In this document: positions 13,725 to 39,242 of the stretch, in pieces | How positions within the stretch are numbered: the stretch's first letter is position 1 | Layout: the number at the start of each line of letters is the position of its first letter | Source of the DNA: Patescibacteria group bacterium | GTDB taxonomy: Bacteria > Patescibacteriota > Gracilibacteria > BD1-5 > UBA2023 | Reading direction: 5' to 3' | Length of the DNA stretch: 40,268 nt | Assembly: GCA_041891375.1 (NCBI GenBank) | Contig: JASDUA010000002.1 | Coordinates: forward strand, 1 to 40,268 | Position numbers and translations under genes: made by a program | Notes under the pieces: generated by a model | What the model was told of the DNA's origin: nothing | Database searches by the model: none | What the model saw: the letters and a program-made list of their open reading frames with translations, nothing else

Positions 13725-13740
13725 AACGGGGAGAAAGGCG

Positions 13741-16843: not shown

Positions 16844-16874
16844 AGGTTTTCGAGAGGTAACGGGATCGGAGGTG

Positions 16875-19409: not shown

Positions 19410-19421
19410 GGTTCCGCTGCC

Positions 19422-22473: not shown

Positions 22474-22506
22474 CGGCGGGTCCGGAATTTTGGCGGATCT
22501 CGCGGC

Positions 22507-23670
22507 CTACTTCCCCTGCCCCTTCGGCAGCGAAAGCTTCAGGAACCGCTTCCCGATCCGGAACCCCTTCCGGGTTTCCGGCGATATCCGCTCCGTCGCG
22601 TACTTCTTCCGGATGCGGAAGGCGTCGAAATGCCCGAAGAGGCCCAGGTACGAATTCACCGAAGCGAGGAACGCCGGCCGGAGGCTTTCGGGCAATCCCT
22701 CCTTTCCGGCCAAGGCGTTCCAGTGCGCCGCGCGCTCCGAGAAATTCCCCTTCGTCCGGTTTCCGAGATAGGTCCGGTAAGGCTTGACGTAGCCCCCGAG
22801 GAACGGGAACCCGTCGCGGACGGAACGGAGCATGATTTTCTTCGGATGGAGCTGGAGCCTGAGGACGTCCCTGAGGAAATCCCGGATCGTCGGAATGCTC
22901 GCTTCGAGCACCGAACGGTCTTCGTGCATCAGGAGGAAGTCGTCCACGTACCGGCCGTAGTGCCGGATTTTCAGCGTCCGCTTCACGAAATCGTCGAGCG
23001 GGTGGAGGTAGAGGTTCGCGAATATCTGGCTCGTAAGGTTTCCGATCGGGAGGCCGACTCCCGTAGGGGAATGGAAGAGGCTCTTCCCTCTCGGAAGGTC
23101 CGCCCAGTCCGAACGGTTTCACCGGATGACGCAGTTCTCCGTCGGGTCGTTGGCCAATATCTTCCGGATGAGGAAGAGAAGCGTCTCGGGATCCGCGCCG
23201 CGGTATTTCCTTTCCACCGTCCGTTCGAGCATCGCCAGGAGTATCCGCCGGTCGATCGACATGAAGAATCCCGATATGTCGAGTTTCAGGACGTGCGCCT
23301 CCTTCGTGAAGGTGTCGGTGCAAGACCTGGCGAAATGTTCCGCGCGACGTATGCCGAACAGCGCGCCCTTCCCCACCCTGCAGGCGTACGAATCGTGGAT
23401 GAAAGTCCGGTCGATCGCCTCGCCGATTTCGCCCACGACGTAGTGGTGCACGACGCGGTCACGGAAGTCTCAGGCGAATATTTCCCTTTTCACCGGCCTG
23501 TCTACTATGAAGGCGACGCACCGGCCGACTTCGTACCGGCGTTCGACGATCTCGTCGTACAGTTGGAACAGCTTGCTCTCGTAGTCCATTTCGAAATCGG
23601 TGGCGTTGCGGGTTTTCCGTTTGTTCTGCCGGCAGTCGTAGTACGCGCGGAAAAGGTCGGCGGCTTCCAT
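22507..23670 (-). CDS. Diversity-generating retroelement reverse transcriptase (387 aa) with two in-frame TGA (23470, 23119)
   Basis: Track pieces 23470-23670, 23119-23451 and 22507-22986 share one frame. Junctions: REIFA-[TGA]-DFRDRVVHH and NCVIR-[TGA]-NRSDWADLP. Motifs: GLPIGNLTSQIFANLYL (DGR-type xGxxxSQ motif), YGRYVDDFLLM (YxDD). TAG stop. Confidence 0.85.
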
Positions 23671-23693
23671 TCGGTTCGGGTCAAGCGATAAGA

Positions 23694-23718
23694 AAAGCGC
23701 CCCGCGGAGGGGCGCTTT
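23694..23718 (-). other. 10-bp GC-rich hairpin in the 59-nt spacer between the TR and the RT start
   Basis: AAAGCGCCCC, loop gcgga, GGGGCGCTTT on the + strand. On the coding (-) strand it is followed by a T-rich run. Confidence 0.5.
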
Positions 23719-23729
23719 CGTCCTGGTTC

Positions 23730-23906
23730 GAGGCAGCGGACCGATAACCCGTTCGCCCGGTTATTGTTGTTAGCGGGAATCACTCCGTTAGTAGTCGAGA
23801 GATTCACGTTGTTCCCGTTCGTCCCGGTAGTAGACGCGGCCCAGTAGTTGCCGTTCGTACCCTGGTTATTGAACGCGGCGGTCGAGTTGTTACGGTTGCC
23901 GGCGAG
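23730..23906 (-). repeat. DGR template repeat (TR), 177 nt
   Basis: Aligns without gaps to 24537-24713 and 32739-32915. Asn-rich when translated (NGVIPANNNNRANG; AAC/AAT codons). Lies between avd and the RT. All about 17 differences from VR1 fall at TR positions that are T on the + strand, which is A on the coding strand. Confidence 0.85.
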
Positions 23907-24009
23907 ACGGAAAGCGGCCGCTTACGGCGGAGGCGTCCGGCTTCCGCTGGGGAGGGAGGACGCCTTCGGATTTCGTACCCCCGGCCTACGGCCGGAGGTG
24001 GGCCGCCAA

Positions 24010-24411
24010 TCAGGACTGGGGCTCGCCCGGGCGCTCCGTGGAGTCGCCAGGTTCCGGCCCGCGTGGTCCCGGGAGGGATTTGTCCCAGTGGAACAGTTGC
24101 TTCGAGATGCCTTCGATGTGTTCGTTCAACCGGACGAACTTGTCGACCGCGATGAGCTTGAGGTCCTTCGTGAGCCGGAGGTACAGCCTGACGGTTTCGA
24201 GGCATTCCCTCGCCTCCGTGACGTGTTCCTTCCTCCTGGCCATCGATCCGTTCGCCCGGTACACGGCGCGGATCAGGTCGAGGAGTTCCCTTTTCACGCT
24301 CTCGCCGAGCGTGTACTTGTATTCCCTGGGAAAGGTTTTGACGAAGGCGAAGGCTTCGACGAGGAAGTCGTAGCTTGCCCGGTAGACGGGAAGCCGGTCG
24401 TAGGTGGCCAT
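24010..24411 (-). CDS. avd: DGR accessory variability determinant (Avd; four-helix-bundle / 23S rRNA-intervening-sequence-type protein)
   Basis: Sequence MATYDRLPVYRASYDFLVEAFAFVKTFPREYKYTLGESVKRELLDLIRAVYRAN...RLYLRLTKDLKLI. Position between target and TR is canonical. First stop is TGA at 24010; TAG at 23986 applies if TGA=Gly (+7 aa). Confidence 0.75.
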   Translation of the reverse strand: MATYDRLPVYRASYDFLVEAFAFVKTFPREYKYTLGESVKRELLDLIRAVYRANGSMARRKEHVTEARECLETVRLYLRLTKDLKLIAVDKFVRLNEHIEGISKQLFHWDKSLPGPRGPEPGDSTERPGEPQS

Positions 24412-24470
24412 TCCGGTATTAGGTGAAGTCTCCGGCGCGGTGCCGGCCGGGGGTTATCCCCGGAAAGAAA

Positions 24471-24491
24471 CCGGACCCGCAAGGGGTCCGG
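24471..24491 (-). terminator. Hairpin about 40 nt 3' of the VR1/target stop (terminator and/or DGR homing-associated hairpin)
   Basis: CCGGACCC, loop gcaag, GGGTCCGG. On the - strand it is followed by TTTCTTTCC. Confidence 0.5.
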
Positions 24492-24527
24492 AAAGAGTCA
24501 GAAGAGTCGGAAGTGCCGAGGATTGTC

Positions 24528-26021
24528 CTAATTCTTGAGGCAGCGGACCGATAACCCGAGCGCCCGGGTATTGTGGTTAGCGGGAACCACTCCGTTAGTA
24601 GTCGAGAGAGTCACGTTGCGCCCGTTCGTCCCGGTAGTAGACGCGGCCCAGTAGCCGCCGAGCGTACCCTGGTTATTGAACGCGGCGGCCGAGGTGTTAC
24701 GGTAGCCGGCGAGCGGCAGGCGGAGCGTGGTCATGAACTTGTTGGCCGTGGTTTCCACGTGCCAGGCGGCGTCGCAAAGGGTTACGTCCGGCGATACGGC
24801 CTTGATGGCGTCGCACCACTCCTTCTGCGTCGGGACGTGGTAGCCGGACTGGCAGGGGCCCTGCATCGCGGCCGGGGATCCGAGCGACGAGTAGGTTCCG
24901 ACGGCGGTTGTCGAACCGGTGCCTCACCAGAGGTTGTCGTCCTGGACCGAGAGCCAGTCATACGGCGCGGTGCCTTTCGTTATGAACCGGGTTTCGGAAG
25001 CCGCCGTGGCGGCGGCCAGCGGTCCGGCGACCGTGGTTCCGGTGGTGACGTCCTCGTTCCTTCCCCACTGGTAATAGGCTCCCATATACGCCTTCTGCGC
25101 TGCCGTCGGACCGCCGGCCGCGGTGGCGTCGGTGAGCGCTACCGACTGTCCGGCGTACGCGGTGCTCGCGCCCACGTTGCAGGCCGCCCAATGCTGGTTC
25201 GATCCGGTGAGGTAAATGTCCGGAGCGTCGCAGCCCGGGTACTGGCTCGCCCCGCCTCCGGAAGAGGCCGAGCTTGAGGAAGACGACCCGGAAGTCCCGG
25301 TCGCGCCGCCGTCGACGAGCGCGCCGGTTCCGGTCGGGGCCTTCACGAGGCCGAGGACGGCTCCCGCGGAAACCTGTGCCGCGGTGGGCGCCGGGAAATT
25401 GCCGGAGACGGCGACGAGGCCTGTGGCCGGAGCCGTGCCGGCCACCTGGAAGAAGGAGGCGGAACGGTTCCTTCCGGAGGCGGTCGGGGCGAGCGCGGCG
25501 TCGACGGCTCAGACGGCGAGCGATTTCGAATCGTACGCGGCGAAAGAGTCCGGAAGGAAGGAGCCCAGCGACAGGAACCCGCCCATGGGCGGACGGCGGG
25601 AGAGCCGGAATTTCTCCGGATTGAGCTTGAGCTTCGTCCAATCCGGATTGCCGGCCGAGTAATTCGTGCCGGCCTGGTTCCAATCACCGCCGGTGAGCGT
25701 CACCGGGGAGCCGTCGACGTACGCCACGGCCGCTCCCGTGAGCGCGGCGGCGGCGTCGTGGACGACGTAGTAGCGCGGCGAGTTGTCGGTGACGGCCGAC
25801 TCGGAAGAAATCGCCGTATATACCGACCGGACGTTGGCTTTCACGGCGGCGTCCTTCGCGTCCTGCGAGTAGCCGGAAAGGGCGAGGAAGCCTATCGTTG
25901 CCAGAATCGCGAGGATCGTGATGACGACGATGAGTTCGGCAAGGGTGAATCAGGAAAGGATCGATGCTTTGGCGGCCTTGGCGGGCGGCCTGGAGGCCGG
26001 CGCCTCGCGTTTCGCGTCCAT
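24528..26021 (-). CDS. Type IV pilin-like protein with C-terminal Fib_succ_major (FISUMP)/C-type-lectin-like domain; DGR target 1 (497 aa, three in-frame TGA)
   Basis: Four track pieces share one frame and are joined by TGA at 25950, 25509 and 24924. N-terminus: MDAKRE...KASILS-[TGA]|FTLAELIVVITILAILATIGFLAL (prepilin G|FTLxE motif). Ser/Gly linker. C-terminal motifs: GYHVPTQKEWCDAI, LPLAGYRN, GGYWAASTTG, LSVRCLKN. TAG stop at 24528. Confidence 0.8.
24537..24713 (-). repeat. DGR variable repeat 1 (VR1), at the 3' end of pilin-like target 1
   Basis: Same length as the TR. Mismatches fall only at TR adenines on the coding strand, e.g. TR ATT/AAC/AAC/AAC versus VR1 GTT/CAC/ACC/CTC. The 3' 21 nt (GGGTTATCGGTCCGCTGCCTC) are identical to the TR. 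Confidence 0.85.
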
Positions 26022-26125
26022 GTTCGGAAAAAAACGGGTTAAAAATCCGTGGAACATCCTAGCCGGAAATGCGCGGGATGCAAGGCGGACCCCGCAGGCA
26101 TTCCCCTTTTCACCAGCGGGAACGC

Positions 26126-26620
26126 TTACGCGGCGACCGCCACCGGCGCGGCGCATCCGCTCGGAAGCCTTATTGACGAAGGTCCGTCCGTACCGTTCCT
26201 CACGGCCGGGAACGTCTTCCGGCCCCTTGAGCCCGCGGCGACGTCGCCGACCCAGCGGTAGGCGTTGGCCCTTTGGTCGTAGAACGCGCCGTGGGCGGAG
26301 TGCCGGAATCAGGAAAACGCCCTGCGGAAAAGGACGCGGTCCTCGTCGGACCGACCGGAGAACGCCACTGCGGCGGCTTCGAGCTCGGCGGCTGCCGGAA
26401 GGCGGAGGCCCGCGGACTGCAGTTCCCGGACCGCGGCGGCATAGGTGAAAAACTGCTCGGGTGCTCCGTCGGGAAGCAGGACCTGCCAGACGTCCCCTCG
26501 GGTGTTCGCGAGGATCGGGCGTCCGAACGCGGAGGATCAGGGAACGGCGGTCCATCCGGACGAATCAATCCGGAAAAGGCGGAATCCGGCGAATGCCGGG
26601 TCTGGTTTCGTTTCTGGCAC
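26126..26620 (-). CDS. DUF1566-like small protein (about 164 aa, GTG start uncertain) with two in-frame TGA (26537, 26309)
   Basis: Not in the track because two TGA split it. Sequence ...FRLFRIDSSGWTAVP-[TGA]-SSAFGRPILANTRGDVWQVLLPDGAPEQFFTYAAAVRELQSAGLRLPAAAELEAA...RRAFS-[TGA]-FRHSAHGAFYDQRANAYRWVGDV..., TAA at 26126. Clear paralogue of 17783-18247. The other two minus frames are Arg/Pro-rich. Confidence 0.5.
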
Positions 26621-26698
26621 GTGGGGTCGCGCTTGAAGGGGTAAGGCGTCCTGATGCTATCCGCGGAACCCTTCGGGTCAAGCCTGGCTTGGTACGGG

Positions 26699-28255
26699 CT
26701 AATCGAGGGCCAGCCCGATCGCCCCCACCATTTCACCGAACGACTCCGGAAATTTCCGCGTTACGGCGCCGGCCAGCGTCTTCAGGAAATCGTCGCGCTC
26801 GAGGCCGAGCTCCTTCCCCGCCGCGTACACCTCTTTGTGCTTGCCCGCCTTCGCTCCCGTATCGAGGGCTTCGGCGACCGTATCGGGATCGGAACCCACT
26901 AATGCGGCGAGGTCGTTGGCGATTTCCTTTCCTTTCCGCATGAGCCACGCTTCGGGCCATACGTCGCCCGGAAGGTAGGCCATCCGCGCTTTCATCCAGT
27001 CGTCGAAATCCTCTTCCGGATTCTCGGCCATCTTGCGGGCGTGGCCGACGTTGTCGCCCTCCTTCTTCCTTTGGTCGCCGTCGAAAACCGCCAGAACCGG
27101 ATGGTCCCCGTCCCGCAGGTACGTCGCGGCGAGCTGTCTGGCGAGGCAGTTCGCCGAGCCGATTTCGGTTACGGTGATCCGCGTCCGCTGTTGGGCCGAC
27201 AGCGCGGCGCAGACGAGCGCTTTGGCCACGTCGTCCTCGACCAGGACCTCGAGCTCCTTGCCGGCGACCCCTCCGAGTTTCGAAAAGGCGAACTCCGATG
27301 AGACCGAATCGAGGATCCTCGTCCGACCGTTGACGGTCTCTACGAAGTACCTGGCGTCGCTCGGGAGGCGCTCGAAGATCTCTTTCGAGTGCGTCGTGCA
27401 AATCACTTGGGCATTGAGCTTCAAGCACGCGTCCTTGAGCTTGTCGACGAACCGCCGCTGGGCTTCGGCATGGAGCCCGAGCTCGATCTCGTCGATGACC
27501 AGCAAGGCTCCCTTTCCGCAGTCGTACAGGACGGAAAAGATCTCGAAGAGGGCGTTCTCCCCCGCTCCCATGTTGAAGCCGGAATACACTGTCTCGCCCA
27601 CCTTCACGATGGGAAGGTTGTACTTCGAATATTCGAGGTACCGGAAACTGTCGTACGTCTTTCCGAGGATGGATCCGACGATGTCCTTAACCTCGTCTTC
27701 CCATCCTTTCTGCACCGCGTCCTTGAACGCTTTTGAGTACGACCGCGACTGGCTCCGCTCGGCGTGCGGGACGATCCGGTCGATTCCGAGGAACGCTACG
27801 TTCCGCCGTACCCGGTCCGCGTAGTCGTTCCATTTGCCGCCCCGCTTCTTCGATCGCTTCTGCCAGCCGACGCCCACGCCGTCCGGGAGGGTGTCGCTCT
27901 TCTTCCACTTGTCGTAGGCGATCCCGTACTTGATTTCGATTCCTTGCGGGGACAGTTCCTCCGGATGCTGGACGAAAAAATCCGAGAACGTGTAGTACGT
28001 CGTCTTCCGCTTGGGCAAGCGGTATCCGTCCCTCCTGTTGTGGTAGGCGCAGCATGCGAGGGCGAGAATGGTGGATTTTCCCGCGCCGTTCTTGCCGGCT
28101 ACGGCGACGATCGGGAAGTTGACCGGGAGGTCGAGCCGCGTCAGGCCACGAAGTTCGCCGGTAACGAGGTTGATGTTCCGAAGGAGCGCTTTGGTGTTGT
28201 CGTTGCAGAACCACTCGCGAAGCTTCTTATCGGTCTTTGTCTCGCTGTATTTCAT
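26699..28255 (-). CDS. OLD-like ABC ATPase with C-terminal Toprim/DUF4435-like domain (518 aa)
   Basis: Motifs: Walker A VAGKNGAGKSTIL, Walker B LLVIDEIELGLHAEAQRRF, CTTHS, then ELEVLVEDDVAKALV and LAVFDGDQRKKEG (Toprim-like E...DxD). TAG stop. No internal TGA. Confidence 0.7.
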   Translation of the reverse strand: MKYSETKTDKKLREWFCNDNTKALLRNINLVTGELRGLTRLDLPVNFPIVAVAGKNGAGKSTILALACCAYHNRRDGYRLPKRKTTYYTFSDFFVQHPEELSPQGIEIKYGIAYDKWKKSDTLPDGVGVGWQKRSKKRGGKWNDYADRVRRNVAFLGIDRIVPHAERSQSRSYSKAFKDAVQKGWEDEVKDIVGSILGKTYDSFRYLEYSKYNLPIVKVGETVYSGFNMGAGENALFEIFSVLYDCGKGALLVIDEIELGLHAEAQRRFVDKLKDACLKLNAQVICTTHSKEIFERLPSDARYFVETVNGRTRILDSVSSEFAFSKLGGVAGKELEVLVEDDVAKALVCAALSAQQRTRITVTEIGSANCLARQLAATYLRDGDHPVLAVFDGDQRKKEGDNVGHARKMAENPEEDFDDWMKARMAYLPGDVWPEAWLMRKGKEIANDLAALVGSDPDTVAEALDTGAKAGKHKEVYAAGKELGLERDDFLKTLAGAVTRKFPESFGEMVGAIGLALD

Positions 28256-28449
28256 ACGCTTGAGCGGTTACGTCCGGAATATTCGTTTGATCTTACCAGG
28301 GTTGGGAAAACCGCCTGGACGACTCGGCTCTCGTGGGGAGGAAACGTCGCAGTTCGCCAAATGGTAAGCACGGAACCGACCCCGTCAAGTTTGGCCGTTT
28401 CCGAATCCGCAATCGTCCCGAGAACGTACCTTTTCGATACGTTCCTCAT
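28252..28449 (-). CDS. Possible 65-aa ORF whose TGA overlaps the ATG of the OLD-like gene (ATGA); low confidence
   Basis: Sequence MRNVSKRYVLGTIADSETAKLDGVGSVLTIWRTATFPPHESRVVQAVFPTLVRSNEYSGRNRSSV. Composition looks like protein, but GC3 is only moderate and the region looks intergenic and carries operator-like repeats. Confidence 0.25.
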   Translation of the reverse strand: MRNVSKRYVLGTIADSETAKLDGVGSVLTIWRTATFPPHESRVVQAVFPTLVRSNEYSGRNRSSV

Positions 28450-28455
28450 ACGTTC
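28422..28455. promoter_or_regulatory. Operator-like inverted plus direct repeat upstream of the OLD-like gene
   Basis: GAACGTA (28422-28428), 9 nt, TACGTTC (28438-28444), 4 nt, TACGTTC (28449-28455). Confidence 0.3.
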
Positions 28456-28462
28456 ACCGGTT

Positions 28463-30124
28463 TTATTCCGTACCTTTACCGGGTATCCACTCCGCGCGCT
28501 CCGGCCACTCGACGCCGAACCGGTCGCAGGCCTTCGCGAACGCCGCGAGCACGTCCTCGGCGTGCGCGGCGAACCGAGCGGTTTCGACGACCATGCCCGC
28601 CCGCTTCGCGGCGCGGCCCGAGGCGCGGACTTCGGATTCGAAGGCGTAAGGGAACGCCTCCGCGAGGGCGGCGGCGGACCGCTCCGCCGCTTTCAGGAGT
28701 CCGGCGGGCGGCTTCCGGTTCCTCGTGGCCATGACCTGGACGAGCTCCGGGACGCCCCCTTCCCCGGGCGCCAGTTCGAAGTGCCCGGCCAGTTCTCCGG
28801 ACGGATGGAACGCCGCGAACACCGCCCGTCTTCCGGCCAGGAGCTCCGGCAGGTACCCGGCCAGGCAGTTCGAAGCCTCGTCGGCCTCGGCGATGAGCCG
28901 GCCAGCGGTGCCTATCCGCCTGGCCTCCCACCCTCCCCCGCAGCCGAGGGCGTCGGGGAACGGCGACGGGATCGGGTCTTCGGGAGGCCAGACTTCCCTC
29001 ACGGCCTCCCGGACGGCCGCGGTTTCCTTGCGCGCCCAAGCGCGGCCCGCGGCCGGAAGGTCGGCCGGGTGGTGCCGGCAGAGGGCCCAGAGGACCGCCC
29101 ACGTTCCCGCGCCGAGACGGACCGTTTCCCCGTGGAACGTCCCGGCGAACGTCCTTCCCCCGACGGCGGGGTGCTTCCCCACCTGCTCGGCGAGGTCGGA
29201 AAGCCAGGCCGTCCCGTGCCGGTCCGGAAGCTCGTACGGGCGGCGGCGGAGCGCCTGCCATACGGCCGCCGAGGCTTCCGCGAGCGCCACGCGCCCTTCA
29301 TGGTCGCCGGCGTCGCGAAGGATGCCGGCCGCCCAGCGTGCCGCCTTCAGGAAGCGGCCGAAGTCGGGGGCGCGGGGCCTCCGTTCCGGCGGTACGAGCG
29401 AGAACGCCGCGGCGTAGAACGCGGGGTCGGTCTCGAAGTCCGCCACGGGATACCCACGGGCGCGCGGATGCCAGGCGCCGACGGCCGCGAGCGACCGGAC
29501 GACGTTGGGCTCCGCCCGGAGCTCCCTGCAGAGCGCGGGCAAGAGTTCCGCCCGCGCGTCGATCGCGGCGAGCACGCGTTCCGCCGGTTCCGGAGTGCCG
29601 GCCGCCAGGCCGGCGCACGTCCAAGGCAGGAGCCAAGGGAAGACGGTGACGGCCTGGACCCTCTCCGGGCGCCCGGAGAGCAGGGCGTACTCCCTCCCGG
29701 TCAGCGGGCGCCCGACCGGGAGCTTCAGGAGGTCCCGATCCAGGGCGCCGAGGAACTCTTCGACGGCTCCCGCGACGCGGGCTGCGGCCGGGTCGGTCCC
29801 GTCCGGACCGCAGGCGGCATAGGCGATCCGCAGGGGCTCGAGGATCGGGTCGAAACCCGAGTAGGGTCCGGCGGCGGCCGCCTCCCTGACCGAGGCGCCG
29901 AGGCTCCCGGCGCCGGGTTTCGGACGGTGGCGCCCGTACGACACGGTTTCGTCGGCGGCATGGAAGAGGAAGGAGGACTCCGCGGCCCCGGGCCCGCTCC
30001 ATTCGACCGTAAGCAGCCGGCCTGGAATCCCGACGGCCCGGAGGACGTCCGCGCCCTCGAGGCTGCGGACCAGGCCGGAAACCTTCCCCGAACGGACGGC
30101 GAGGTACTTGCGGCCCGCGTTCAC
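28463..30124 (-). CDS. 553-aa cytoplasmic protein, C-terminus possibly PcfJ-like
   Basis: GTG start at 30124, preceded by GGGAGGGA. The real frame is the C-terminal 553 aa of the track's 854-aa ORF (the N-terminal 300 aa are an Arg-rich shadow of the vWA gene). The stretch EASNCLAGYLPELLAGRRAVFAAFHPSGELAGHFELAPGEGGVPELVQVMATRNRKPP resembles my recollection of the PcfJ-like domain. TAA stop. Confidence 0.55.
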   Translation of the reverse strand: MNAGRKYLAVRSGKVSGLVRSLEGADVLRAVGIPGRLLTVEWSGPGAAESSFLFHAADETVSYGRHRPKPGAGSLGASVREAAAAGPYSGFDPILEPLRIAYAACGPDGTDPAAARVAGAVEEFLGALDRDLLKLPVGRPLTGREYALLSGRPERVQAVTVFPWLLPWTCAGLAAGTPEPAERVLAAIDARAELLPALCRELRAEPNVVRSLAAVGAWHPRARGYPVADFETDPAFYAAAFSLVPPERRPRAPDFGRFLKAARWAAGILRDAGDHEGRVALAEASAAVWQALRRRPYELPDRHGTAWLSDLAEQVGKHPAVGGRTFAGTFHGETVRLGAGTWAVLWALCRHHPADLPAAGRAWARKETAAVREAVREVWPPEDPIPSPFPDALGCGGGWEARRIGTAGRLIAEADEASNCLAGYLPELLAGRRAVFAAFHPSGELAGHFELAPGEGGVPELVQVMATRNRKPPAGLLKAAERSAAALAEAFPYAFESEVRASGRAAKRAGMVVETARFAAHAEDVLAAFAKACDRFGVEWPERAEWIPGKGTE

Positions 30125-30366
30125 GGCGCGTCCCTCCCGTCCCGGTTGATCGTCGCCCGAACCTTCCCGTCCTTGCCCCGGACGAACTCGGAGCCGGGGG
30201 GAAGCCGGAACAGGAACGCGCGCAGGAGTTCGCCGACGTTGGCCGCCACGTCCGCCAGGAGCACGACGCGGCCTCCACGGCGGTTCCTCCATACGGGCGC
30301 CCGCGTCCCCTTCCGGCACCATCCGACCGGGACGAGACCGATCGCGACCAGCAGGATCCTGAACAT
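30121..30366 (-). CDS. 81-aa single-pass membrane protein ending in a TGA that overlaps the next start (GTGA)
   Basis: Sequence MFRILLVAIGLVPVGWCRKGTRAPVWRNRRGGRVVLLADVAANVGELLRAFLFRLPPGSEFVRGKDGKVRATINRDGRDAP. Very high GC3. If TGA=Gly, it would continue for hundreds of codons in a Ser/Pro/Arg-rich off-frame. Confidence 0.55.
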   Translation of the reverse strand: MFRILLVAIGLVPVGWCRKGTRAPVWRNRRGGRVVLLADVAANVGELLRAFLFRLPPGSEFVRGKDGKVRATINRDGRDAP

Positions 30367-30374
30367 GGCGGCCC

Positions 30375-31031
30375 CTACCGGATCCGGACCGGGTAGCGGC
30401 CGTACTGGACGACGGCGGCCCCGGGAGCGGACGAAAAGTAGCGGGTCCAAAAGGCCTCGACCGCCGCGTAGTCCTTCCCGCCCGCGCCGGCGACGTACAC
30501 CTTCGCGCCGGCGAGCGCCGCGGGGGCCGCGAGGTCCTTCTTCCGTCCCGACGCCAGGTCGAAGCGGCCGGTCTCGAGCATGTCCGAAAGGACCACGAGC
30601 GTCTTCCCCGAGTCCGGGGACTGGGAGAACGCCTGCGACGACGCTTCGACGGCGTCGACGATCCTGGTCGCCTTGTCCGGCGACTTCTCCGCGCGCCCGA
30701 GGATCCCGCCGAGGGCGGCCAGGGCGCCCTCTTCGAACTCCTTCCTCCGCTTCCCGTCTGCGAAGCGCCGGCCGGTCGGCGCGGGAGCTTCGGCGTCGAA
30801 GTCGCGGACCCACGAGGCCCGCTCCTTCCCTCCGAGCGCGGCCACCACCAGGCGGTCCCCCGGACGCACGGCCCGGACGACGCCCTCCACGCTTTCCCGG
30901 TACGCGGCCCGTTCTTCCGCGCCCACGCTCGACGACGCGTCGACGAGCACCACGTACGTGCCGGCCCACGCCGGCGAGGCCAGCGCGAGGCACGCGGCGG
31001 CCGCGCAGGCGGCCATTTCCATTGCATCCAT
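30375..31031 (-). CDS. Secreted von Willebrand factor A (vWA)-like protein, 218 aa
   Basis: Signal peptide MDAMEMAACAAAACLALASPAWAG, MIDAS-like VLVDASSSV (DxSxS), LVVLSDM. SD AGGAG upstream. TAG stop. Confidence 0.7.
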   Translation of the reverse strand: MDAMEMAACAAAACLALASPAWAGTYVVLVDASSSVGAEERAAYRESVEGVVRAVRPGDRLVVAALGGKERASWVRDFDAEAPAPTGRRFADGKRRKEFEEGALAALGGILGRAEKSPDKATRIVDAVEASSQAFSQSPDSGKTLVVLSDMLETGRFDLASGRKKDLAAPAALAGAKVYVAGAGGKDYAAVEAFWTRYFSSAPGAAVVQYGRYPVRIR

Positions 31032-31077
31032 TTCCTTCGGCTCCTATCCGATTACCGTCTTTTCACAATTCGCTATC

Positions 31078-31097
31078 CGTACGTTTCACGTACGTTT
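31078..31097. promoter_or_regulatory. Tandem CGTACGTTT repeat (11-nt period) in the spacer before the vWA gene
   Basis: CGTACGTTT at 31078-31086 and 31089-31097. On the coding strand this reads AAACGTACGtgAAACGTACG, about 50-65 nt upstream of the vWA ATG. Confidence 0.3.
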
Positions 31098-32165
31098 TCC
31101 GTCCGCATTCCAATCCCTCCCGATCTCCCCGACGGCCCTCCGGATATCGCCGGCAGGAGGGTCCGGCGGCGGATCGAGCGGCAGGGGTTCGAAGGCTTCC
31201 TCCCCCACCGCGGAGAGCATGTAGTCCGGCGGCAGGCAGCCGGGCGGGCGGTTGGCGAAGTTGTGGTCCCGGTAGGCGGCGACCATCCCGAGGACGCGGT
31301 GGACCGTTGCCGAAGCTTCGTCCCGCGCTTTCGCCCAGGCTTCCGCCCGACGGGAAGCCAACGCGGCGCGCTTCTTCCAGAGCCGCTCCCGCTCGTCCCG
31401 GAGCCGGTCGCACCGCGCGGCGAGCCTCGAGGCCTCGGGATCGGGATCGGCATTCCATGCGGCGAAAGCCGCCGCCGCCAGGTAGCCGAAGCACTGGACG
31501 GCGAGGAACGCCGCCGAATGCCCCACGAGCTCCCCCGCCCCGTCGGCCGCGAGCTGCACTTCCCGAATGGAGGCGAACCCCCAGGCGAAAGCCGCGACCC
31601 CGACGTTCGCGAAGGCGACGGCCCAGCCCGGCAAGCCGCCGGGACGGCCGGCTCCCCTCTGCCTGGCCCAAGTGCCGGTCGCCTTCGCGACGGCGAAGAG
31701 CGACGCCGCGAGGAAAAACGAGTACCAGAGCTTCTCGTTCAGCAGGAACCGGACGGCCGAGGCGGCGAAGTCGCCGAATCCCCCCTCCCCCGCCGGTTCC
31801 GTCGGGACCGGGCCGGCCATCCCGAAGTAGTCGAGCAACCCGTACGCGAGGGCCCATTCGCCGCAGACCGCGACCGCTGCGAACGCCGCGAAGGCCCATC
31901 CCGGCAACGGCTTGCGGTACCGGCGTCCGCCGCATTCCCGCAGGAACTCGGCCTCCGTCCGCACGAGTTCGTCCGAGGTTTCGCGGAGGGACAGGTCGAG
32001 CCGGTTAATCTCGGCCCGGTCCCGCTTGGCCTCCGCGTTCGCCTTCGAGGCGAGTTCGAAGCGCTCCCGGTTGCCCGGGGCGACGAGCCGGGCGGCGAAG
32101 GGCTCGCGGACCTTCGTTCCCGTGGCCGCCGGGCGGAAGCGCCGGAGTTCGAGCACGTCAGCCAT
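31086..32165 (-). CDS. 359-aa membrane protein: N-terminal coiled coil, about 4 TM helices, C-terminal coiled coil
   Basis: Sequence MADVLELRRF...EAKRDRAEINRLDLSLRETSDELVRTEAEF. Hydrophobic segments: GWAFAAFAAVAVCGEWALAYGLL, LWYSFFLAASLFAVA, GWAVAFANVGVAAFAWGF, AFLAVQCFGYLAAAAFAAW. Then RCDRLRDERERLWKKRAALASRRAEAW. SD AGGGAGG upstream. First stop is TGA at 31086. Confidence 0.65.
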   Translation of the reverse strand: MADVLELRRFRPAATGTKVREPFAARLVAPGNRERFELASKANAEAKRDRAEINRLDLSLRETSDELVRTEAEFLRECGGRRYRKPLPGWAFAAFAAVAVCGEWALAYGLLDYFGMAGPVPTEPAGEGGFGDFAASAVRFLLNEKLWYSFFLAASLFAVAKATGTWARQRGAGRPGGLPGWAVAFANVGVAAFAWGFASIREVQLAADGAGELVGHSAAFLAVQCFGYLAAAAFAAWNADPDPEASRLAARCDRLRDERERLWKKRAALASRRAEAWAKARDEASATVHRVLGMVAAYRDHNFANRPPGCLPPDYMLSAVGEEAFEPLPLDPPPDPPAGDIRRAVGEIGRDWNADGKRT

Positions 32166-32364
32166 TCGCGACCTCCCTTGCCTTCCGTACGCCCGTCTCC
32201 GGCACGGCCGCCGGCGCCGCAGCTTCCGCGGTTCCGGCGTTCCCGTACGTCGCGACCGCGACTCCGTGCCCGCGTGACGGATACCCGTTCCGCCCGTCGC
32301 GCGCCCCGGTCCAACCGGGGTCCGCCGACAGGACCCTCGCCAAGATTTCCCACAGTCCGCCCAT
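32158..32364 (-). CDS. 68-aa protein, first gene of the operon; its TGA stop lies inside the start of the next gene (ATGGCTGA)
   Basis: Sequence MGGLWEILARVLSADPGWTGARDGRNGYPSRGHGVAVATYGNAGTAEAAAPAAVPETGVRKAREVANG. Strong SD GGAAGGAG 7 nt upstream. High GC3. Confidence 0.5.
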   Translation of the reverse strand: MGGLWEILARVLSADPGWTGARDGRNGYPSRGHGVAVATYGNAGTAEAAAPAAVPETGVRKAREVANG

Positions 32365-32594
32365 TTTCGACTCCTTCCCGAACGCTCTCCGAAAAGCCGG
32401 CCCCCTCTCGGGAGTCCCGGCGGCGGAACCGTGGATTTTCGGCCCGCTTGGTTTGAACACTATTCGGACTAAAACCGGAAGTCAACCGAAAGCTATACGG
32501 TTTTTATACGTTAAGCGGTTTTTTGCCGTACCTTTTACGACCGCTAACGATGCGCTTTTGCCCCGGACAAATTTCCCTACGGGATCCGGCCTGC

Positions 32595-32638
32595 GCGGCT
32601 TCCGCGCCCGGCGGACGGGCCGCCTCCGCGGAAGCCGC
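32595..32638. other. 12-bp perfect GC-rich hairpin about 95 nt 3' of the pilin-like target 2 stop
   Basis: GCGGCTTCCGCG (32595-32606), 20-nt loop, CGCGGAAGCCGC (32627-32638). No T-run on either side. Confidence 0.45.
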
Positions 32639-32729
32639 TGCGGTCCTCCCATGGGTGGCGCAGGGCATAAAAAACCGCTCCTCCCGATGATGGGAAGGGC
32701 CGGTTTTCGAGCAAGCATCGGAGCGCTTC

Positions 32730-34178
32730 TTAGTCCCTGAGGCAGCGGACCGATAACCCGTGCGCCCGGTTAGTGTATTTGGCGGGAGACACTCCGTTAG
32801 TAGTCGAGAGATTCACGTAGTACCCGTACGTCCCGGTAGTAGACGCGGCCCAGTAGGAGCCGACCGAACCCTGGAGAGTGAATGCGGCGGTCGAGTTGTT
32901 ACGGTAGCCGGCGAGCGGCAGGCGGAGCGTGGTCATGAATTTGTTGGCGACGGCTTCGGCGTGCCAGTTGGCGTCGCATACCATCGCCGCCCCGCCGTTC
33001 TGCGTCGGGGATACCGCGACGATCGCGTCGCACCATTCCTTGGCCGTGGGCACGTGGTATCCGGCCGCGCAGGGTCCCTGCATCGCGGCCGGGGATCCGA
33101 GCGAGGAGTAGGTTCCGGCGGAAACCGTGGAACCGGTGCCTCCCCAGAGGTTGTCGTCTTGGACGGAGAGCCAGTCGTACGGAGCGGTTCCGTTGGTGAT
33201 GAACCGGGTTTCGGAAGCGGCGGTCGCGGTCGCGAGGGGTCCGGCGACCGTGGCTCCGGTCGTCACGTCGAGGTTCCGTCCCCACTGGTAGTACGCGCCC
33301 ATGTAGGCTTTCTGCGCGGCGGTCGGGCCGCCGGCGGCGGTCGCGTCGGCGAGGGTTACGGACTGTCCGGCGTACGCGGTGCTCGCGCCCACGTTGCAGG
33401 CGGCCCACTTCTGGCCGTTGGAGAGGACGACGTCCGGCGTGTCACAGCCGGGGTAGGCGGCGAACCCCGGGGAAGCGGAGCCGTCGACGAGCGCTCACGT
33501 CAGCGCGCCGGGGAACCCGACGAGTCCGGGGATTCCGCCACTTCCGGCCGGGAAATTACCGGAGACGGTGACGAGACCGGTGGCCGGGGCGGTTCCGGCG
33601 ACCTGAAAGAAGGAGGCCGAACGGTTCCTTCCGGAAGCGGTCGGGGCGAGCGCCGCGTCGACGGCTCAGACGGCGACCGATTTCGGATCGTACGCGGCGA
33701 AAGAGTCCGGAAGGAAGGAGCCCAGCGACAGGAACCCGCCCATGGGCGGACGGCGGGAGAGCCGGAATTTCTCCGGATTGAGCTTGAGCTTCGTCCAATC
33801 CGGATTGCCGGCCGAGTAATTCGTGCCGGCCTGGTTCCAATCACCGCCGGTGAGCGTCACCGGGGAGCCGTCGACGTACGCCACGGCCGCTCCCGTGAGC
33901 GCGGCGGCGGCGTCGTGGACGACGTAGTAGCGCGGCGAGTTGTCGGTGACGGCCGACTCGGAAGAAATCGCCGTATATACCGACCGGACGTTGGCTTTCA
34001 CGGCGGCGTCCTTCGCGTCCTGCGAGTAGCCGGAAAGGGCGAGGAAGCCTATCGTTGCCAGAATCGCGAGGATCGTGATGACGACGATGAGTTCGGCAAG
34101 GGTGAATCAGGAAAGGATCGATGCTTTGGCGGCCTTGGCGGGCGGCCTGGAGGCCGGCGCCTCGCGTTTCGCGTCCAT
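32730..34178 (-). CDS. Type IV pilin-like protein with C-terminal Fib_succ_major/C-type-lectin-like domain; DGR target 2 (482 aa, three in-frame TGA)
   Basis: Pieces 34107-34712 (tail), 33666-34001 and 32730-33392 share one frame. TGA at 34107 (G|FTLAE), 33666 and 33495. The N-terminal about 165 codons are identical to target 1; the C-terminal two thirds diverge (AAGYHVPTAKEWCDAI, LPLAGYRN, GSYWAASTTG, LSVRCLRD). TAA stop. Confidence 0.8.
32739..32915 (-). repeat. DGR variable repeat 2 (VR2), at the 3' end of pilin-like target 2
   Basis: Gap-free 177-nt alignment to the TR. Most mismatches fall at TR adenines on the coding strand, but about 5 do not (e.g. ATT>TCT, GCT>GCC, AAC>AAA). Confidence 0.75.
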
Positions 34179-34282
34179 GTTCGGAAAAAAACGGGTTAAA
34201 AATCCGTGGAACATCCTAGCCGGAAATGCGCGGGATGCAAGGCGGACCCCGCAGGCATTCCCCTTTTCACCAGCGGGAACGC

Positions 34283-34777
34283 TTACGCGGCGACCGCCAC
34301 CGGCGCGGCGCATCCGCTCGGAAGCCTTATTGACGAAGGTCCGTCCGTACCGTTCCTCACGGCCGGGAACGTCTTCCGGCCCCTTGAGCCCGCGGCGACG
34401 TCGCCGACCCAGCGGTAGGCGTTGGCCCTTTGGTCGTAGAACGCGCCGTGGGCGGAGTGCCGGAATCAGGAAAACGCCCTGCGGAAAAGGACGCGGTCCT
34501 CGTCGGACCGACCGGAGAACGCCACTGCGGCGGCTTCGAGCTCGGCGGCTGCCGGAAGGCGGAGGCCCGCGGACTGCAGTTCCCGGACCGCGGCGGCATA
34601 GGTGAAAAACTGCTCGGGTGCTCCGTCGGGAAGCAGGACCTGCCAGACGTCCCCTCGGGTGTTCGCGAGGATCGGGCGTCCGAACGCGGAGGATCAGGGA
34701 ACGGCGGTCCATCCGGACGAATCAATCCGGAAAAGGCGGAATCCGGCGAATGCCGGGTCTGGTTTCGTTTCTGGCAC
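34283..34777 (-). CDS. Second copy of the DUF1566-like small protein (two in-frame TGA at 34694, 34466)
   Basis: Offset of 8157 from 26126-26620, inside the identical repeat. Confidence 0.5.
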
Positions 34778-34855
34778 GTGGGGTCGCGCTTGAAGGGGTA
34801 AGGCGTCCTGATGCTATCCGCGGAACCCTTCGGGTCAAGCCTGGCTTGGTACGGG

Positions 34856-36412
34856 CTAATCGAGGGCCAGCCCGATCGCCCCCACCATTTCACCGAACGA
34901 CTCCGGAAATTTCCGCGTTACGGCGCCGGCCAGCGTCTTCAGGAAATCGTCGCGCTCGAGGCCGAGCTCCTTCCCCGCCGCGTACACCTCTTTGTGCTTG
35001 CCCGCCTTCGCTCCCGTATCGAGGGCTTCGGCGACCGTATCGGGATCGGAACCCACTAATGCGGCGAGGTCGTTGGCGATTTCCTTTCCTTTCCGCATGA
35101 GCCACGCTTCGGGCCATACGTCGCCCGGAAGGTAGGCCATCCGCGCTTTCATCCAGTCGTCGAAATCCTCTTCCGGATTCTCGGCCATCTTGCGGGCGTG
35201 GCCGACGTTGTCGCCCTCCTTCTTCCTTTGGTCGCCGTCGAAAACCGCCAGAACCGGATGGTCCCCGTCCCGCAGGTACGTCGCGGCGAGCTGTCTGGCG
35301 AGGCAGTTCGCCGAGCCGATTTCGGTTACGGTGATCCGCGTCCGCTGTTGGGCCGACAGCGCGGCGCAGACGAGCGCTTTGGCCACGTCGTCCTCGACCA
35401 GGACCTCGAGCTCCTTGCCGGCGACCCCTCCGAGTTTCGAAAAGGCGAACTCCGATGAGACCGAATCGAGGATCCTCGTCCGACCGTTGACGGTCTCTAC
35501 GAAGTACCTGGCGTCGCTCGGGAGGCGCTCGAAGATCTCTTTCGAGTGCGTCGTGCAAATCACTTGGGCATTGAGCTTCAAGCACGCGTCCTTGAGCTTG
35601 TCGACGAACCGCCGCTGGGCTTCGGCATGGAGCCCGAGCTCGATCTCGTCGATGACCAGCAAGGCTCCCTTTCCGCAGTCGTACAGGACGGAAAAGATCT
35701 CGAAGAGGGCGTTCTCCCCCGCTCCCATGTTGAAGCCGGAATACACTGTCTCGCCCACCTTCACGATGGGAAGGTTGTACTTCGAATATTCGAGGTACCG
35801 GAAACTGTCGTACGTCTTTCCGAGGATGGATCCGACGATGTCCTTAACCTCGTCTTCCCATCCTTTCTGCACCGCGTCCTTGAACGCTTTTGAGTACGAC
35901 CGCGACTGGCTCCGCTCGGCGTGCGGGACGATCCGGTCGATTCCGAGGAACGCTACGTTCCGCCGTACCCGGTCCGCGTAGTCGTTCCATTTGCCGCCCC
36001 GCTTCTTCGATCGCTTCTGCCAGCCGACGCCCACGCCGTCCGGGAGGGTGTCGCTCTTCTTCCACTTGTCGTAGGCGATCCCGTACTTGATTTCGATTCC
36101 TTGCGGGGACAGTTCCTCCGGATGCTGGACGAAAAAATCCGAGAACGTGTAGTACGTCGTCTTCCGCTTGGGCAAGCGGTATCCGTCCCTCCTGTTGTGG
36201 TAGGCGCAGCATGCGAGGGCGAGAATGGTGGATTTTCCCGCGCCGTTCTTGCCGGCTACGGCGACGATCGGGAAGTTGACCGGGAGGTCGAGCCGCGTCA
36301 GGCCACGAAGTTCGCCGGTAACGAGGTTGATGTTCCGAAGGAGCGCTTTGGTGTTGTCGTTGCAGAACCACTCGCGAAGCTTCTTATCGGTCTTTGTCTC
36401 GCTGTATTTCAT
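34856..36412 (-). CDS. Second copy of the OLD-like ABC ATPase-Toprim protein
   Basis: The 518-aa translation is identical to 26699-28255. Confidence 0.7.
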   Translation of the reverse strand: MKYSETKTDKKLREWFCNDNTKALLRNINLVTGELRGLTRLDLPVNFPIVAVAGKNGAGKSTILALACCAYHNRRDGYRLPKRKTTYYTFSDFFVQHPEELSPQGIEIKYGIAYDKWKKSDTLPDGVGVGWQKRSKKRGGKWNDYADRVRRNVAFLGIDRIVPHAERSQSRSYSKAFKDAVQKGWEDEVKDIVGSILGKTYDSFRYLEYSKYNLPIVKVGETVYSGFNMGAGENALFEIFSVLYDCGKGALLVIDEIELGLHAEAQRRFVDKLKDACLKLNAQVICTTHSKEIFERLPSDARYFVETVNGRTRILDSVSSEFAFSKLGGVAGKELEVLVEDDVAKALVCAALSAQQRTRITVTEIGSANCLARQLAATYLRDGDHPVLAVFDGDQRKKEGDNVGHARKMAENPEEDFDDWMKARMAYLPGDVWPEAWLMRKGKEIANDLAALVGSDPDTVAEALDTGAKAGKHKEVYAAGKELGLERDDFLKTLAGAVTRKFPESFGEMVGAIGLALD

Positions 36413-36619
36413 ACGCTTGAGCGGTTACGTCCGGAATATTCGTTTGATCTTACCAGGGTTGGGAAAACCGCCTGGACGACTCGGCTCTCGTGGGGAGGAA
36501 ACGTCGCAGTTCGCCAAATGGTAAGCACGGAACCGACCCCGTCAAGTTTGGCCGTTTCCGAATCCGCAATCGTCCCGAGAACGTACCTTTTCGATACGTT
36601 CCTCATACGTTCACCGGTT

Positions 36620-38281: not shown

Positions 38282-38523
38282 GGCGCGTCCCTCCCGTCCC
38301 GGTTGATCGTCGCCCGAACCTTCCCGTCCTTGCCCCGGACGAACTCGGAGCCGGGGGGAAGCCGGAACAGGAACGCGCGCAGGAGTTCGCCGACGTTGGC
38401 CGCCACGTCCGCCAGGAGCACGACGCGGCCTCCACGGCGGTTCCTCCATACGGGCGCCCGCGTCCCCTTCCGGCACCATCCGACCGGGACGAGACCGATC
38501 GCGACCAGCAGGATCCTGAACAT
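38278..38523 (-). CDS. Second copy of the 81-aa TM protein (TGA/GTG overlap)
   Basis: Identical to copy 1 (offset 8157). Confidence 0.55.
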   Translation of the reverse strand: MFRILLVAIGLVPVGWCRKGTRAPVWRNRRGGRVVLLADVAANVGELLRAFLFRLPPGSEFVRGKDGKVRATINRDGRDAP

Positions 38524-38531
38524 GGCGGCCC

Positions 38532-39188: not shown

Positions 39189-39242
39189 TTCCTTCGGCTC
39201 CTATCCGATTACCGTCTTTTCACAATTCGCTATCCGTACGTT

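What the first reader, a model, noticed from the sequence alone, without database searches (positions are those of the whole stretch)
24528..34178. One TR serves two type IV pilin-like targets, diversifying a lectin-like pilus tip domain
Both VR-bearing proteins start with a prepilin leader and G|FTLAE followed by a hydrophobic helix, which is the type IV pilin/pseudopilin signature. Both end in a Fib_succ_major-type domain (GYHVPT.KEW, LPLAGYR, GxYWAASTTG, SVRC) whose last about 59 codons are the VR. The predicted product is a pilin with a ligand-binding C-terminal lectin fold that is hypervariable at roughly 15-20 Asn-templated positions.

CLec, DUF1566 and FISUMP folds are known DGR scaffolds, and DGRs are known to be abundant in CPR bacteria. 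I do not recall a described case where the scaffold is fused to a type IV pilin N-terminus. If this organism is an epibiont or predator of the UGA=Gly type, this would be a plausible mechanism for varying host attachment.

The second target is 8.2 kb from the first and has no RT, Avd or TR of its own.
Basis: partly seen in the sequence, partly recalled or inferred. Interest (0 to 1): 0.75.

Follow-up and report, generated by a model that had tools for sequence, protein, structure and literature searches.

The report
DGR-diversified type IV pilin adhesins
A self-mutating genetic cassette (a diversity-generating retroelement) in a bacterium that reads UGA as glycine rewrites the outer end of two pilus-subunit-like proteins; this plausibly lets the cell vary what its pili stick to, and it is a well-supported new example of a known kind of system, not a new kind.

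Summary
On the minus strand lie a DGR reverse transcriptase (22507-23670), one template repeat (TR, 23730-23906), Avd (23986-24411) and two targets, T1 (24528-26021) and T2 (32730-34178).

VR1 differs from the TR at 15 positions, all TR adenines. VR2 differs at 20, of which 16 are adenines. Both targets read through three in-frame TGAs. Five such TGAs in the targets and the RT align with Gly in paralogues or homologues, so UGA=Gly is supported.

Both targets pass the prepilin model (TIGR02532) and Pfam Fib_succ_major. A profile of the family hits solved type IV pilins.

The same pilin-FISUMP-Avd-TR-RT cassette recurs in at least five other Gracilibacteria/Patescibacteria assemblies, two with pilus-type ATPase genes adjacent.

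It is an 8,157-bp direct repeat, 100% identical over 6.5 kb. That stretch includes the targets' first ~155 codons and a 6.6-kb TGA-free module, which is found at 99% identity on a Rep3/relaxase plasmid contig. T2 looks like a recombinant, or possibly an assembly product.

Pilus-tip location and clustering of VR residues remain untested. Pilin-like DGR targets in CPR have been mentioned in the literature in passing.

The parts
22507..23670 (-). DGR reverse transcriptase (387 aa, two in-frame TGA codons read as Gly)
   Evidence: Pfam RVT_1 at 54.6 bits. It carries the IGNLTSQ and YVDD motifs. The best homologues are Gracilibacteria DGR RTs at 56-58% identity. The TGA at residue 184 aligns with Gly in 117 of 120 homologues.
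23730..23906 (-). Template repeat (TR) core, 177 nt, 46 adenines, 17 AAY codons
   Evidence: It aligns with both VRs, and the mismatches fall at TR adenines.
23694..23718 (.). 10-bp perfect hairpin just 3' of the TR
   Evidence: A role in the DGR RNA is inferred and was not tested.
23986..24411 (-). Avd accessory protein (133 aa up to a TGA, 141 aa if that TGA is read through to the TAG)
   Evidence: Pfam bAvd at 54.4 bits against a cutoff of 40. NCBIfam DivGenRetAVD is the best hit.
24528..26021 (-). Target T1: class III (prepilin) signal, pilin module, Gly/Ser linker and Fib_succ_major domain (497 aa)
24537..24713 (-). VR1, the last 59 full codons of T1 before ..KN-stop
   Evidence: 15 of 15 mismatches to the TR are at TR adenines.
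26059..32677 (-). Copy 1 of the 6.6-kb TGA-free module. It holds a 518-aa AAA_21/HEC-04-like ATPase (26699-28255), a ~550-aa protein (28463-30103), a 218-aa protein (30375-31031) and a 359-aa membrane protein (31086-32165).
   Evidence: It is about 99% identical to a Logan plasmid-type contig carrying Rep3, ParA, MobC and relaxase (L031). PADLOC HEC-04 at 1.5e-45.
32671..32707 (.). Hairpin plus T-run (terminator-like) 23 nt after the T2 stop. Similarity to the plasmid contig starts here.
32730..34178 (-). Target T2: the same N-terminal ~155 codons as T1 (100% nt identity), then a C-terminal part about 85% identical (482 aa)
32739..32915 (-). VR2
   Evidence: 20 mismatches to the TR, 16 at adenines. 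The 21 nt at the 3' end are identical to the TR and VR1.
34216..40268 (-). Copy 2 of the module, cut off by the end of the window
   Evidence: 100% identical to 26059-32111.

Best explanation
This is an active diversity-generating retroelement in a high-GC bacterium that reads UGA as glycine and is related to Gracilibacteria (Patescibacteria/CPR).

The RT, together with Avd, copies the TR RNA with errors at adenines. The cDNA then overwrites the last 59 codons of two paralogous genes. The theoretical repertoire is about 10^26 protein variants, and no TR codon can mutate to a stop.

Each target is a 'modular type IV pilin':
- a prepilin leader cleaved after the Gly encoded by TGA;
- a hydrophobic alpha-1 helix with Glu5, followed by a ~150-200-aa pilin module;
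- a linker, Ser/Gly-rich in T1 and much shorter in T2;
- a cysteine-rich Fib_succ_major (CLec2-class) domain whose C-terminal surface is the VR.

Most likely the protein is assembled by the type IV pilus machinery as a minor, probably tip-located, subunit that displays a hypervariable binding domain for attachment to other cells or ligands.

Shown here: the cassette anatomy, the adenine-specific TR/VR pattern, UGA=Gly, the class III signal and pilin homology, recurrence in relatives, and TR-to-VR transfer in a sister population.

Inferred: cleavage by a prepilin peptidase, incorporation into pili, tip position and the ligand.

T2 is best read as a recent recombinant. Unequal crossover between the N-terminal modules of two neighbouring targets, separated by an acquired plasmid module, would give module-[T1 N-terminus + T2 C-terminus]-module-T1-Avd-TR-RT.
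For: - TR/VR adenine bias.
- RT, Avd, N_methyl and Fib_succ_major hits.
- Homology to solved pilins.
- TGA aligns with Gly at the pilin -1 site (G/A in relatives), at T1 residue 366 (GGT in T2), at T2 residue 228 (Gly in T1), at the Gly171 site shared by T1 and T2 (consensus Gly in relatives) and at RT residue 184 (Gly in 117/120).
- The same pilin-FISUMP-Avd-TR-RT cassette occurs in L004/L009, L006/L010, L005, L007 and L017.
- T2SSE ATPase genes sit next to homologues in L003 and L005.
- An independent Logan contig, L033 (95.8% identity), carries PDC-S06-RT-TR-Avd-T1-ATPase module. Its VR differs from its TR only at adenines. A T-to-G change in its TR is mirrored in its VR.
- Diversity estimate.
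Against: - No pilB, pilC or pilD lies in the 40-kb window, and the rest of the genome is unavailable.
- The full-length model is poor (pLDDT 51). The C-terminal model is moderate (pLDDT 68), has no PDB fold match and came without coordinates, so VR exposure could not be tested.
- TIGR02145 is below its cutoff (26-34 bits against 41.65).
- VR2 has 4 non-adenine differences from the TR, so it may be targeted less often.
- The T2 arrangement rests on one assembly. I could not retrieve an independent contig spanning the T2 3' end into the module.
Confidence: 0.75

Rival explanations
1. The class III signal peptide serves only for export and membrane anchoring, or for a short pseudopilus, as with archaeal class III substrate-binding proteins or T2SS pseudopilins. 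On this reading T1 and T2 are DGR-variable cell-surface receptors that are not built into long pili.
For: Only the first ~60 residues of T1 alone match solved pilins. The globular pilin part is modelled at low confidence. The weak NCBIfam matches include GspG and GspH. No pilus genes lie in the window.
Against: The family profile matches S. sanguinis PilE1 over 124 residues and Neisseria PilE over ~120. Homologues sit next to T2SSE ATPase genes. Bulky modular pilins with this layout are shown to be pilus subunits in S. sanguinis (PMC8179133).
Confidence: 0.17
2. The two-target tandem layout is an assembly artefact. Under this reading the 6.5-kb perfect repeat was traversed twice, and the C-terminal part of T2 belongs to a co-existing strain or to another place in the genome, so each genome has only one target next to this DGR.
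For: The repeat is 100% identical over 6.5 kb, next to about 15% divergence in the remainder of the target gene. The window ends inside copy 2. The Logan contigs break at the TR (L034) and 38 bp before the target start codon (L031). L033 runs through T1 without a branch. No independent contig was found across the junction at the T2 3' end.
Against: A unique 620-bp spacer joins the T2 stop to the start of module copy 1. That spacer has its own terminator and a diverged promoter region, which a strain bubble would not create. VR2 still matches this TR with an adenine bias and an identical 3' end, so it is a target of this or an identical TR wherever it lies. VR-VR-TR-RT is the second commonest DGR layout (PMC11661182).
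Confidence: 0.15
3. The cassette is a dead relic carried on a standard-code (Betaproteobacteria-type) plasmid or ICE. On this reading the TGAs are real stops and nothing is diversified today.
For: The large defence genes and the module have no internal TGA. Several genes have a single TGA only near the 3' end, looking like a former stop codon. Window 4127-11906 is 79% identical to a Cupriavidus plasmid. The ATPase is 77% identical to a Vogesella protein.
Against: TGA sits at positions that are Gly in homologues, including an RT residue that is nearly invariant. The TGA at the pilin -1 Gly is conserved in L033. The L033 VR carries only adenine-site changes and mirrors a TR-specific T-to-G change, which needs a full-length RT. 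Relatives are Gracilibacteria whose genes are split under table 11.
Confidence: 0.03

Closest known systems
DGRs with DUF1566/DUF823/Fib_succ_major ('CLec2', category d) targets, exemplified by Legionella LdtA (Wu et al. 2018, PMC5758913)
   Same: The RT-Avd-TR cassette, the adenine-specific TR/VR pattern, the VR at the extreme C-terminus of a Fib_succ_major-type domain, and display on the cell surface.
   Different: LdtA is a lipoprotein anchored in the outer membrane. Here the N-terminus is a prepilin signal plus a pilin module, and the host reads UGA as Gly.
Modular type IV pilins such as S. sanguinis PilB (vWA) and PilC (lectin) (Raynaud et al. 2021, PMC8179133)
   Same: A small N-terminal pilin module joined by a linker to a bulky binding module. 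IPR012902+IPR011871 (Fib_succ_major) is listed among the 15 commonest architectures, with CPR representatives.
   Different: Those pilins are not hypermutated. The paper gives no function for the Fib_succ_major module and makes no link to DGRs.
Bacteroides DGRs that diversify type V pilus tip adhesins (bioRxiv 10.1101/2024.11.15.621889)
   Same: The concept of a DGR varying the adhesive subunit of a pilus.
   Different: Those are type V pili, assembled by strand exchange from lipoprotein precursors. The two systems share no homology in the display module.
CPR/DPANN DGRs (Paul et al. 2017, as cited in PMC6642488 and PMC10221324; DGR clade 2 of Roux et al. 2021, PMC8144416)
   Same: Cell-encoded DGRs in ultrasmall, probably host-dependent bacteria. 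'Putative pilin structures' are reported among their variable proteins.
   Different: I could not read the primary paper. The open literature searched here does not analyse the pilin-FISUMP family, its recurrence in Gracilibacteria or a two-target layout.

Membership tests
Diversity-generating retroelement | A TR/VR pair whose mismatches are almost all at TR adenines | tested here: met
   VR1 15/15 and VR2 16/20.
Diversity-generating retroelement | A DGR-type reverse transcriptase next to the TR | tested here: met
   RVT_1 at 54.6 bits. The IGNLTSQ and YVDD motifs are present. About 50% identity to thousands of DGR RTs.
Diversity-generating retroelement | An accessory protein (Avd) | tested here: met
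   bAvd at 54.4 bits, above the cutoff of 40.
Diversity-generating retroelement | A VR 3' end (IMH-like) shared with the TR, with a hairpin downstream | tested here: inconclusive
   The 21-nt GC-rich 3' end is identical in the TR, VR1 and VR2. Hairpins lie 40-60 nt downstream. No IMH/IMH* difference could be defined.
Diversity-generating retroelement | Ongoing TR-to-VR transfer | tested here: met
   In the sister contig L033, a T-to-G change in the TR is mirrored in its VR, and the VRs differ between samples at adenine sites. This was not shown within the window's own population.
Type IV pilin (class III signal peptide) | A charged leader, small residue at -1, Phe+1, Glu+5 and a ~20-residue hydrophobic helix | tested here: met
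   ...KASILS-G|FTLAELIVVITILAILATIGFLAL. TIGR02532 at 23.8 bits, above 16.3. Pfam N_methyl at the cutoff.
Type IV pilin (class III signal peptide) | A globular pilin domain (alpha-1 helix packed on a beta sheet) | tested here: inconclusive
   The family profile aligns with PilE1 over 124 residues and PilE over ~120. The AF2 model shows a long helix followed by strands, but at pLDDT below 50.
Type IV pilin (class III signal peptide) | A prepilin peptidase and assembly machinery in the same genome | not testable with these tools
   None lies in the window, and the genome is not in the collections. Relatives have a T2SSE gene next to homologues.
Fib_succ_major / FISUMP (CLec2-class DGR scaffold) | A match to the family model above its curated cutoff | tested here: met
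   Pfam PF09603 at 40.4/42.3 bits against 33.9. NCBIfam TIGR02145 is below its cutoff, at 26-34 bits against 41.65. The BFVD fold match is to phage Fib_succ_major proteins at 1.4e-4.
Fib_succ_major / FISUMP (CLec2-class DGR scaffold) | A C-type-lectin fold with the VR residues on one exposed face | not testable with these tools
   The model has pLDDT 68 and no PDB hit at E<=1e-3. No coordinates were returned.
Genetic code 25 (UGA=Gly; Gracilibacteria/SR1) | In-frame TGA at positions that are Gly in homologues, with TAA/TAG as the stops | tested here: met
   Five sites. Relatives are Gracilibacteria MAGs. No tRNA genes lie in the window, so tRNA-Gly(UCA) was not seen.

The most novel reading that the evidence does not exclude
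The DGR and its pilin-adhesin targets ride on a mobile element (plasmid/ICE-like) of a high-GC, UGA=Gly, CPR-type bacterium. That element has been collecting defence systems and a plasmid module from standard-code Betaproteobacteria, possibly its hosts or prey. It is now amplifying target genes by unequal crossover. On this reading it would be a transferable, self-diversifying host-attachment cassette that also records gene flow across a genetic-code boundary.
Probability: 0.2. Interest if true: 0.75.

Novelty: new member of a known kind. Interest (0 to 1): 0.5.

Why it matters
Type IV pili are a leading candidate for how CPR/Patescibacteria attach to their hosts. DGRs are unusually common in these organisms, but the roles of their target proteins are mostly unknown.

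A conserved family in which the DGR rewrites the outer module of a pilin gives a concrete, testable link between the two: variable pilus adhesins as host-range determinants.

The locus also shows how such targets multiply (recombination between pilin modules). It further shows that a UGA=Gly organism can carry large blocks of recently imported standard-code DNA.

Tried and rejected
I modelled the 73%-identical homologue P0001 and the TGA-free C-terminal 254 aa of T2 instead.
- Foldseek against the PDB gave nothing significant.
- A profile search of the PDB found no solved FISUMP relative.
- The 21-nt VR/TR 3' end is absent from the JGI metagenome contigs and from IMG/VR.
- The window's own genome is not among the GTDB representatives; the best FISUMP match there is 55%.
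- Exact-protein look-ups for Avd, the T2 C-terminal ORF and the membrane protein were not on record. The junction from T2 into the module therefore stays unconfirmed.
- Paul et al. 2017 could not be read.
- I dropped the 'small ORF' 26126-26656(-) as evidence for TGA use. On the plasmid contig the called genes in that stretch are on the other strand.
- I rejected a simple two-part chimeric contig. A TGA-rich ORF (15314-16870) lies among TGA-free genes, and L033 independently joins the defence genes, the DGR, T1 and the module.
Full report
**Observation**

The window is 60-71% G+C. All relevant genes lie on the minus strand. Translating 26180-24525 and 34340-32727 gives two long reading frames. 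Each is interrupted only by three TGA codons and closed by TAG or TAA.

Read with TGA=Gly, they are T1 (24528-26021, 497 aa) and T2 (32730-34178, 482 aa).

Downstream of T1 lie Avd (to 24411), a 177-nt template repeat (23730-23906) and a reverse transcriptase (22507-23670).

The TR aligns with the last 59 codons of both targets. VR1 has 15 mismatches, all at TR adenines. VR2 has 20, of which 16 are at adenines. Adenine makes up 26% of the TR, so the VR1 pattern has a chance probability near 2e-9. The TR core has 17 AAY codons, and 15 of the 20 codons that vary are AAY. Adenine mutagenesis could give about 10^26 protein variants and can never create a stop.

**Genetic code**

Several in-frame TGAs can be checked against other sequences:
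- The first TGA in both targets sits exactly at the -1 position of the prepilin cleavage site, which is Gly or Ala in relatives.
- The TGA at T1 residue 366 aligns with GGT in T2.
- The TGA at T2 residue 228 aligns with Gly in T1.
- The shared TGA at residue 171 aligns with the family consensus Gly.
- The RT TGA at residue 184 aligns with Gly in 117 of 120 DGR RT homologues, and the one at residue 67 with Ala/Gly.

The closest homologues of target and RT come from Gracilibacteria/Patescibacteria MAGs. One of them is an obvious code-4 mistranslation, full of Trp where Gly is expected. UGA=Gly is well supported, although the window has no tRNA genes.

**What the targets are**

- Pfam gives Fib_succ_major above its cutoff (40.4 and 42.3 bits against 33.9) and N_methyl at the cutoff.
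- NCBIfam TIGR02532 (IV_pilin_GFxxxE) is clearly above its cutoff (23.8 bits against 16.3). TIGR02145 is below its own.
- A profile of the family hits solved type IV pilins: Geobacter PilA-N at 3e-12, S. sanguinis PilE1 at 2e-9 over 124 residues, Neisseria PilE at 2e-5, and many PilA proteins.
- T1 alone hits the same proteins over its first ~60 mature residues.

The layout therefore matches what Raynaud et al. call a modular pilin. That paper lists IPR012902+IPR011871 (Fib_succ_major) among the 15 commonest such architectures, with no function assigned (PMC8179133).

Structure prediction was only partly informative. The 73%-identical homologue P0001 gave pLDDT 51, with a long N-terminal helix followed by strands. 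The T2 C-terminal domain gave pLDDT 68 and pTM 0.74. That model has no significant PDB match and matches only phage Fib_succ_major predictions in BFVD. No coordinates were available, so clustering of the VR residues could not be tested. The 'C-type lectin' assignment rests on the literature class CLec2 (PMC5758913).

**Recurrence**

The target search found 80 relatives. Many combine N_methyl and Fib_succ_major. The same ~220-aa pilin module is also fused to Fibrinogen_C, FGE-sulfatase, Laminin_G_3 and Flg_new modules.

The full cassette, pilin-FISUMP target followed by bAvd, TR and RT, is present in:
- GCA_028713325 (L004/L009);
- GCA_041660685 (L006/L010);
- GCA_003488655 (L005);
- JAVKLK01 (L007);
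- RRZU01 (L017).

In every case not truncated by a contig end, the motif [GA]F[TS]LVE[LI] is at the N-terminus. A T2SSE (pilus-type ATPase) gene lies next to the target in L005 and next to a homologue in L003. Other homologues have no RT within the flank (L001, L002, L012, L013).

**Activity**

A Logan contig from another sample, L033, is 95.8% identical to window 19636-29136. It carries PDC-S06, the RT, the TR, Avd, a T1 allele and the ATPase module.
- Its target keeps the TGA at the -1 Gly.
- Its VR differs from its TR only at adenines and differs from the window's VR1.
- A T-to-G change in its TR is mirrored in its VR.

That requires a full-length RT. It argues both for ongoing homing and for translation of TGA.

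**The second target**

The 8.2-kb spacing, however, is a direct repeat. Positions 24536-32111 match 32738-40268, with no differences at all from about 25600 to 32111. All divergence (about 15%, with indels) is confined to the C-terminal two thirds of the target. The window ends inside copy 2.

The repeat contains the first ~155 codons of the target plus a 6.6-kb block. That block encodes a 518-aa AAA_21/HEC-04-like ATPase, a ~550-aa protein, a 218-aa protein and a 359-aa membrane protein. None of these has an internal TGA.

The block is about 99% identical to part of a Logan contig, L031, that also carries Rep3, ParA, MobC/NikA and a relaxase. Similarity starts at the terminator hairpin after the T2 stop codon, and L031 ends 38 bp before the target start codon.

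The simplest reading has three steps:
1. Two neighbouring targets existed, the common VR-VR-TR-RT layout (PMC11661182).
2. A plasmid module was acquired between them.
3. A recent unequal crossover between the pilin modules produced module-[T1 N-terminus + T2 C-terminus]-module-T1.

This predicts a third target beyond the contig end.

An assembly artefact cannot be excluded, because I could not retrieve an independent contig across the T2-to-module junction. The T1-to-module junction is independently confirmed by L033.

**Literature and novelty**

- Roux et al. 2021 does not mention pili.
- No open paper combines 'diversity-generating retroelement' with 'type IV pilin'.
- PMC11661182 lists a GspG-type pilin domain among rare VR-bearing domains and counts 43 Fib_succ_major targets.
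- PMC6642488 cites Paul et al. 2017 for 'putative pilin structures' among CPR variable proteins.
- A 2024 preprint shows Bacteroides DGRs diversifying type V pilus adhesins.

The finding is therefore a clear, well-documented new member of a known kind. Its useful addition is that the pilin-FISUMP DGR target is a conserved Gracilibacteria family.

**Verdict**

Pilus incorporation, tip position and the ligand remain inferred. The reality of the tandem layout needs long reads or coverage analysis. Interest is moderate.

Noticed in passing
window 2-22473: A dense defence island. It holds Gabija (GajA 2-2098 at 958 bits, with a UvrD-like GajB to 3903), a type III restriction enzyme (4108-7083), a methylase (7109-9057), a DrmD-like SNF2 helicase (9058-11928), SRAP (12116-12832), ArdC (~12900-13800) and PDC-S06 (19882-22473 at 1009 bits). 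Positions 4127-11906 are 79% nt-identical to a Cupriavidus taiwanensis plasmid.
   Followed up: partly
whole window (e.g. SNF2 stop at 9058-9063, integrase 18267-18282, SRAP 12758, Avd 24010, membrane protein 31086): TGA use is uneven. T1, T2, the RT and ORF 15314-16870 have internal TGA=Gly codons. The large defence genes and the plasmid module have none. Several genes carry a single TGA only near the 3' end, as if a former standard-code stop is now read through to the next TAA/TAG. This suggests recent import of standard-code DNA into a UGA=Gly host.
   Followed up: partly
window 15314-16870 (-): A ~510-aa secreted-looking ORF with 7 in-frame TGAs and no Pfam hit. It is absent from the otherwise syntenic contig L033, so it is an indel between populations.
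   Followed up: partly
window 18267-19421 (-): The tyrosine integrase is interrupted by an in-frame TAG at 19071-19073, where L033 has a Ser codon and an intact 379-aa gene. It is probably inactivated here.
   Followed up: yes
window 28437-28477, 31079-31119, 32495-32535 (and 36594-36634, 39236-39276): A ~41-nt motif (ATACGTT..ATACGTT..CCGTACC) recurs just upstream of the ATPase, the 218-aa gene and the membrane-protein gene of the module. It may be a shared operator or promoter.
   Followed up: no
L031 (Logan SRR19749607, 16,446-bp contig): The module between the two targets occurs on a Rep3/ParA/MobC/relaxase plasmid-type contig at about 99% identity. Its upstream intergenic region is only ~75% identical to window 32400-32677.
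   Followed up: partly
one search hit list; L006 9344-11590: The same Gracilibacteria pilin module is fused to other binding modules (Fibrinogen_C, FGE-sulfatase, Laminin_G_3, Flg_new, Gly_rich_2). This suggests a general pilin 'display platform' family. FGE-sulfatase is itself a classic DGR scaffold.
   Followed up: no
L001, L002, L003, L013, L014 (GC 56-59%): The closest relatives form a high-GC lineage. Under table 11 their housekeeping genes are split (topA, hflX in L001). L013 and L011 are labelled 'Candidatus Peribacteria' in NCBI yet have in-frame TGAs in the pilin gene. The code and taxonomy of this lineage deserve a check.
   Followed up: no
window 25950-25952 / 34107-34109; L033 target codon 52: The glycine at the prepilin cleavage site (-1) is encoded by TGA in T1, T2 and the L033 allele. 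Closer relatives use Ala or a standard Gly codon there.
   Followed up: partly
window 1-53: The first 53 nt are 98% identical to unannotated stretches of Alicycliphilus and Aromatoleum plasmids.
   Followed up: no
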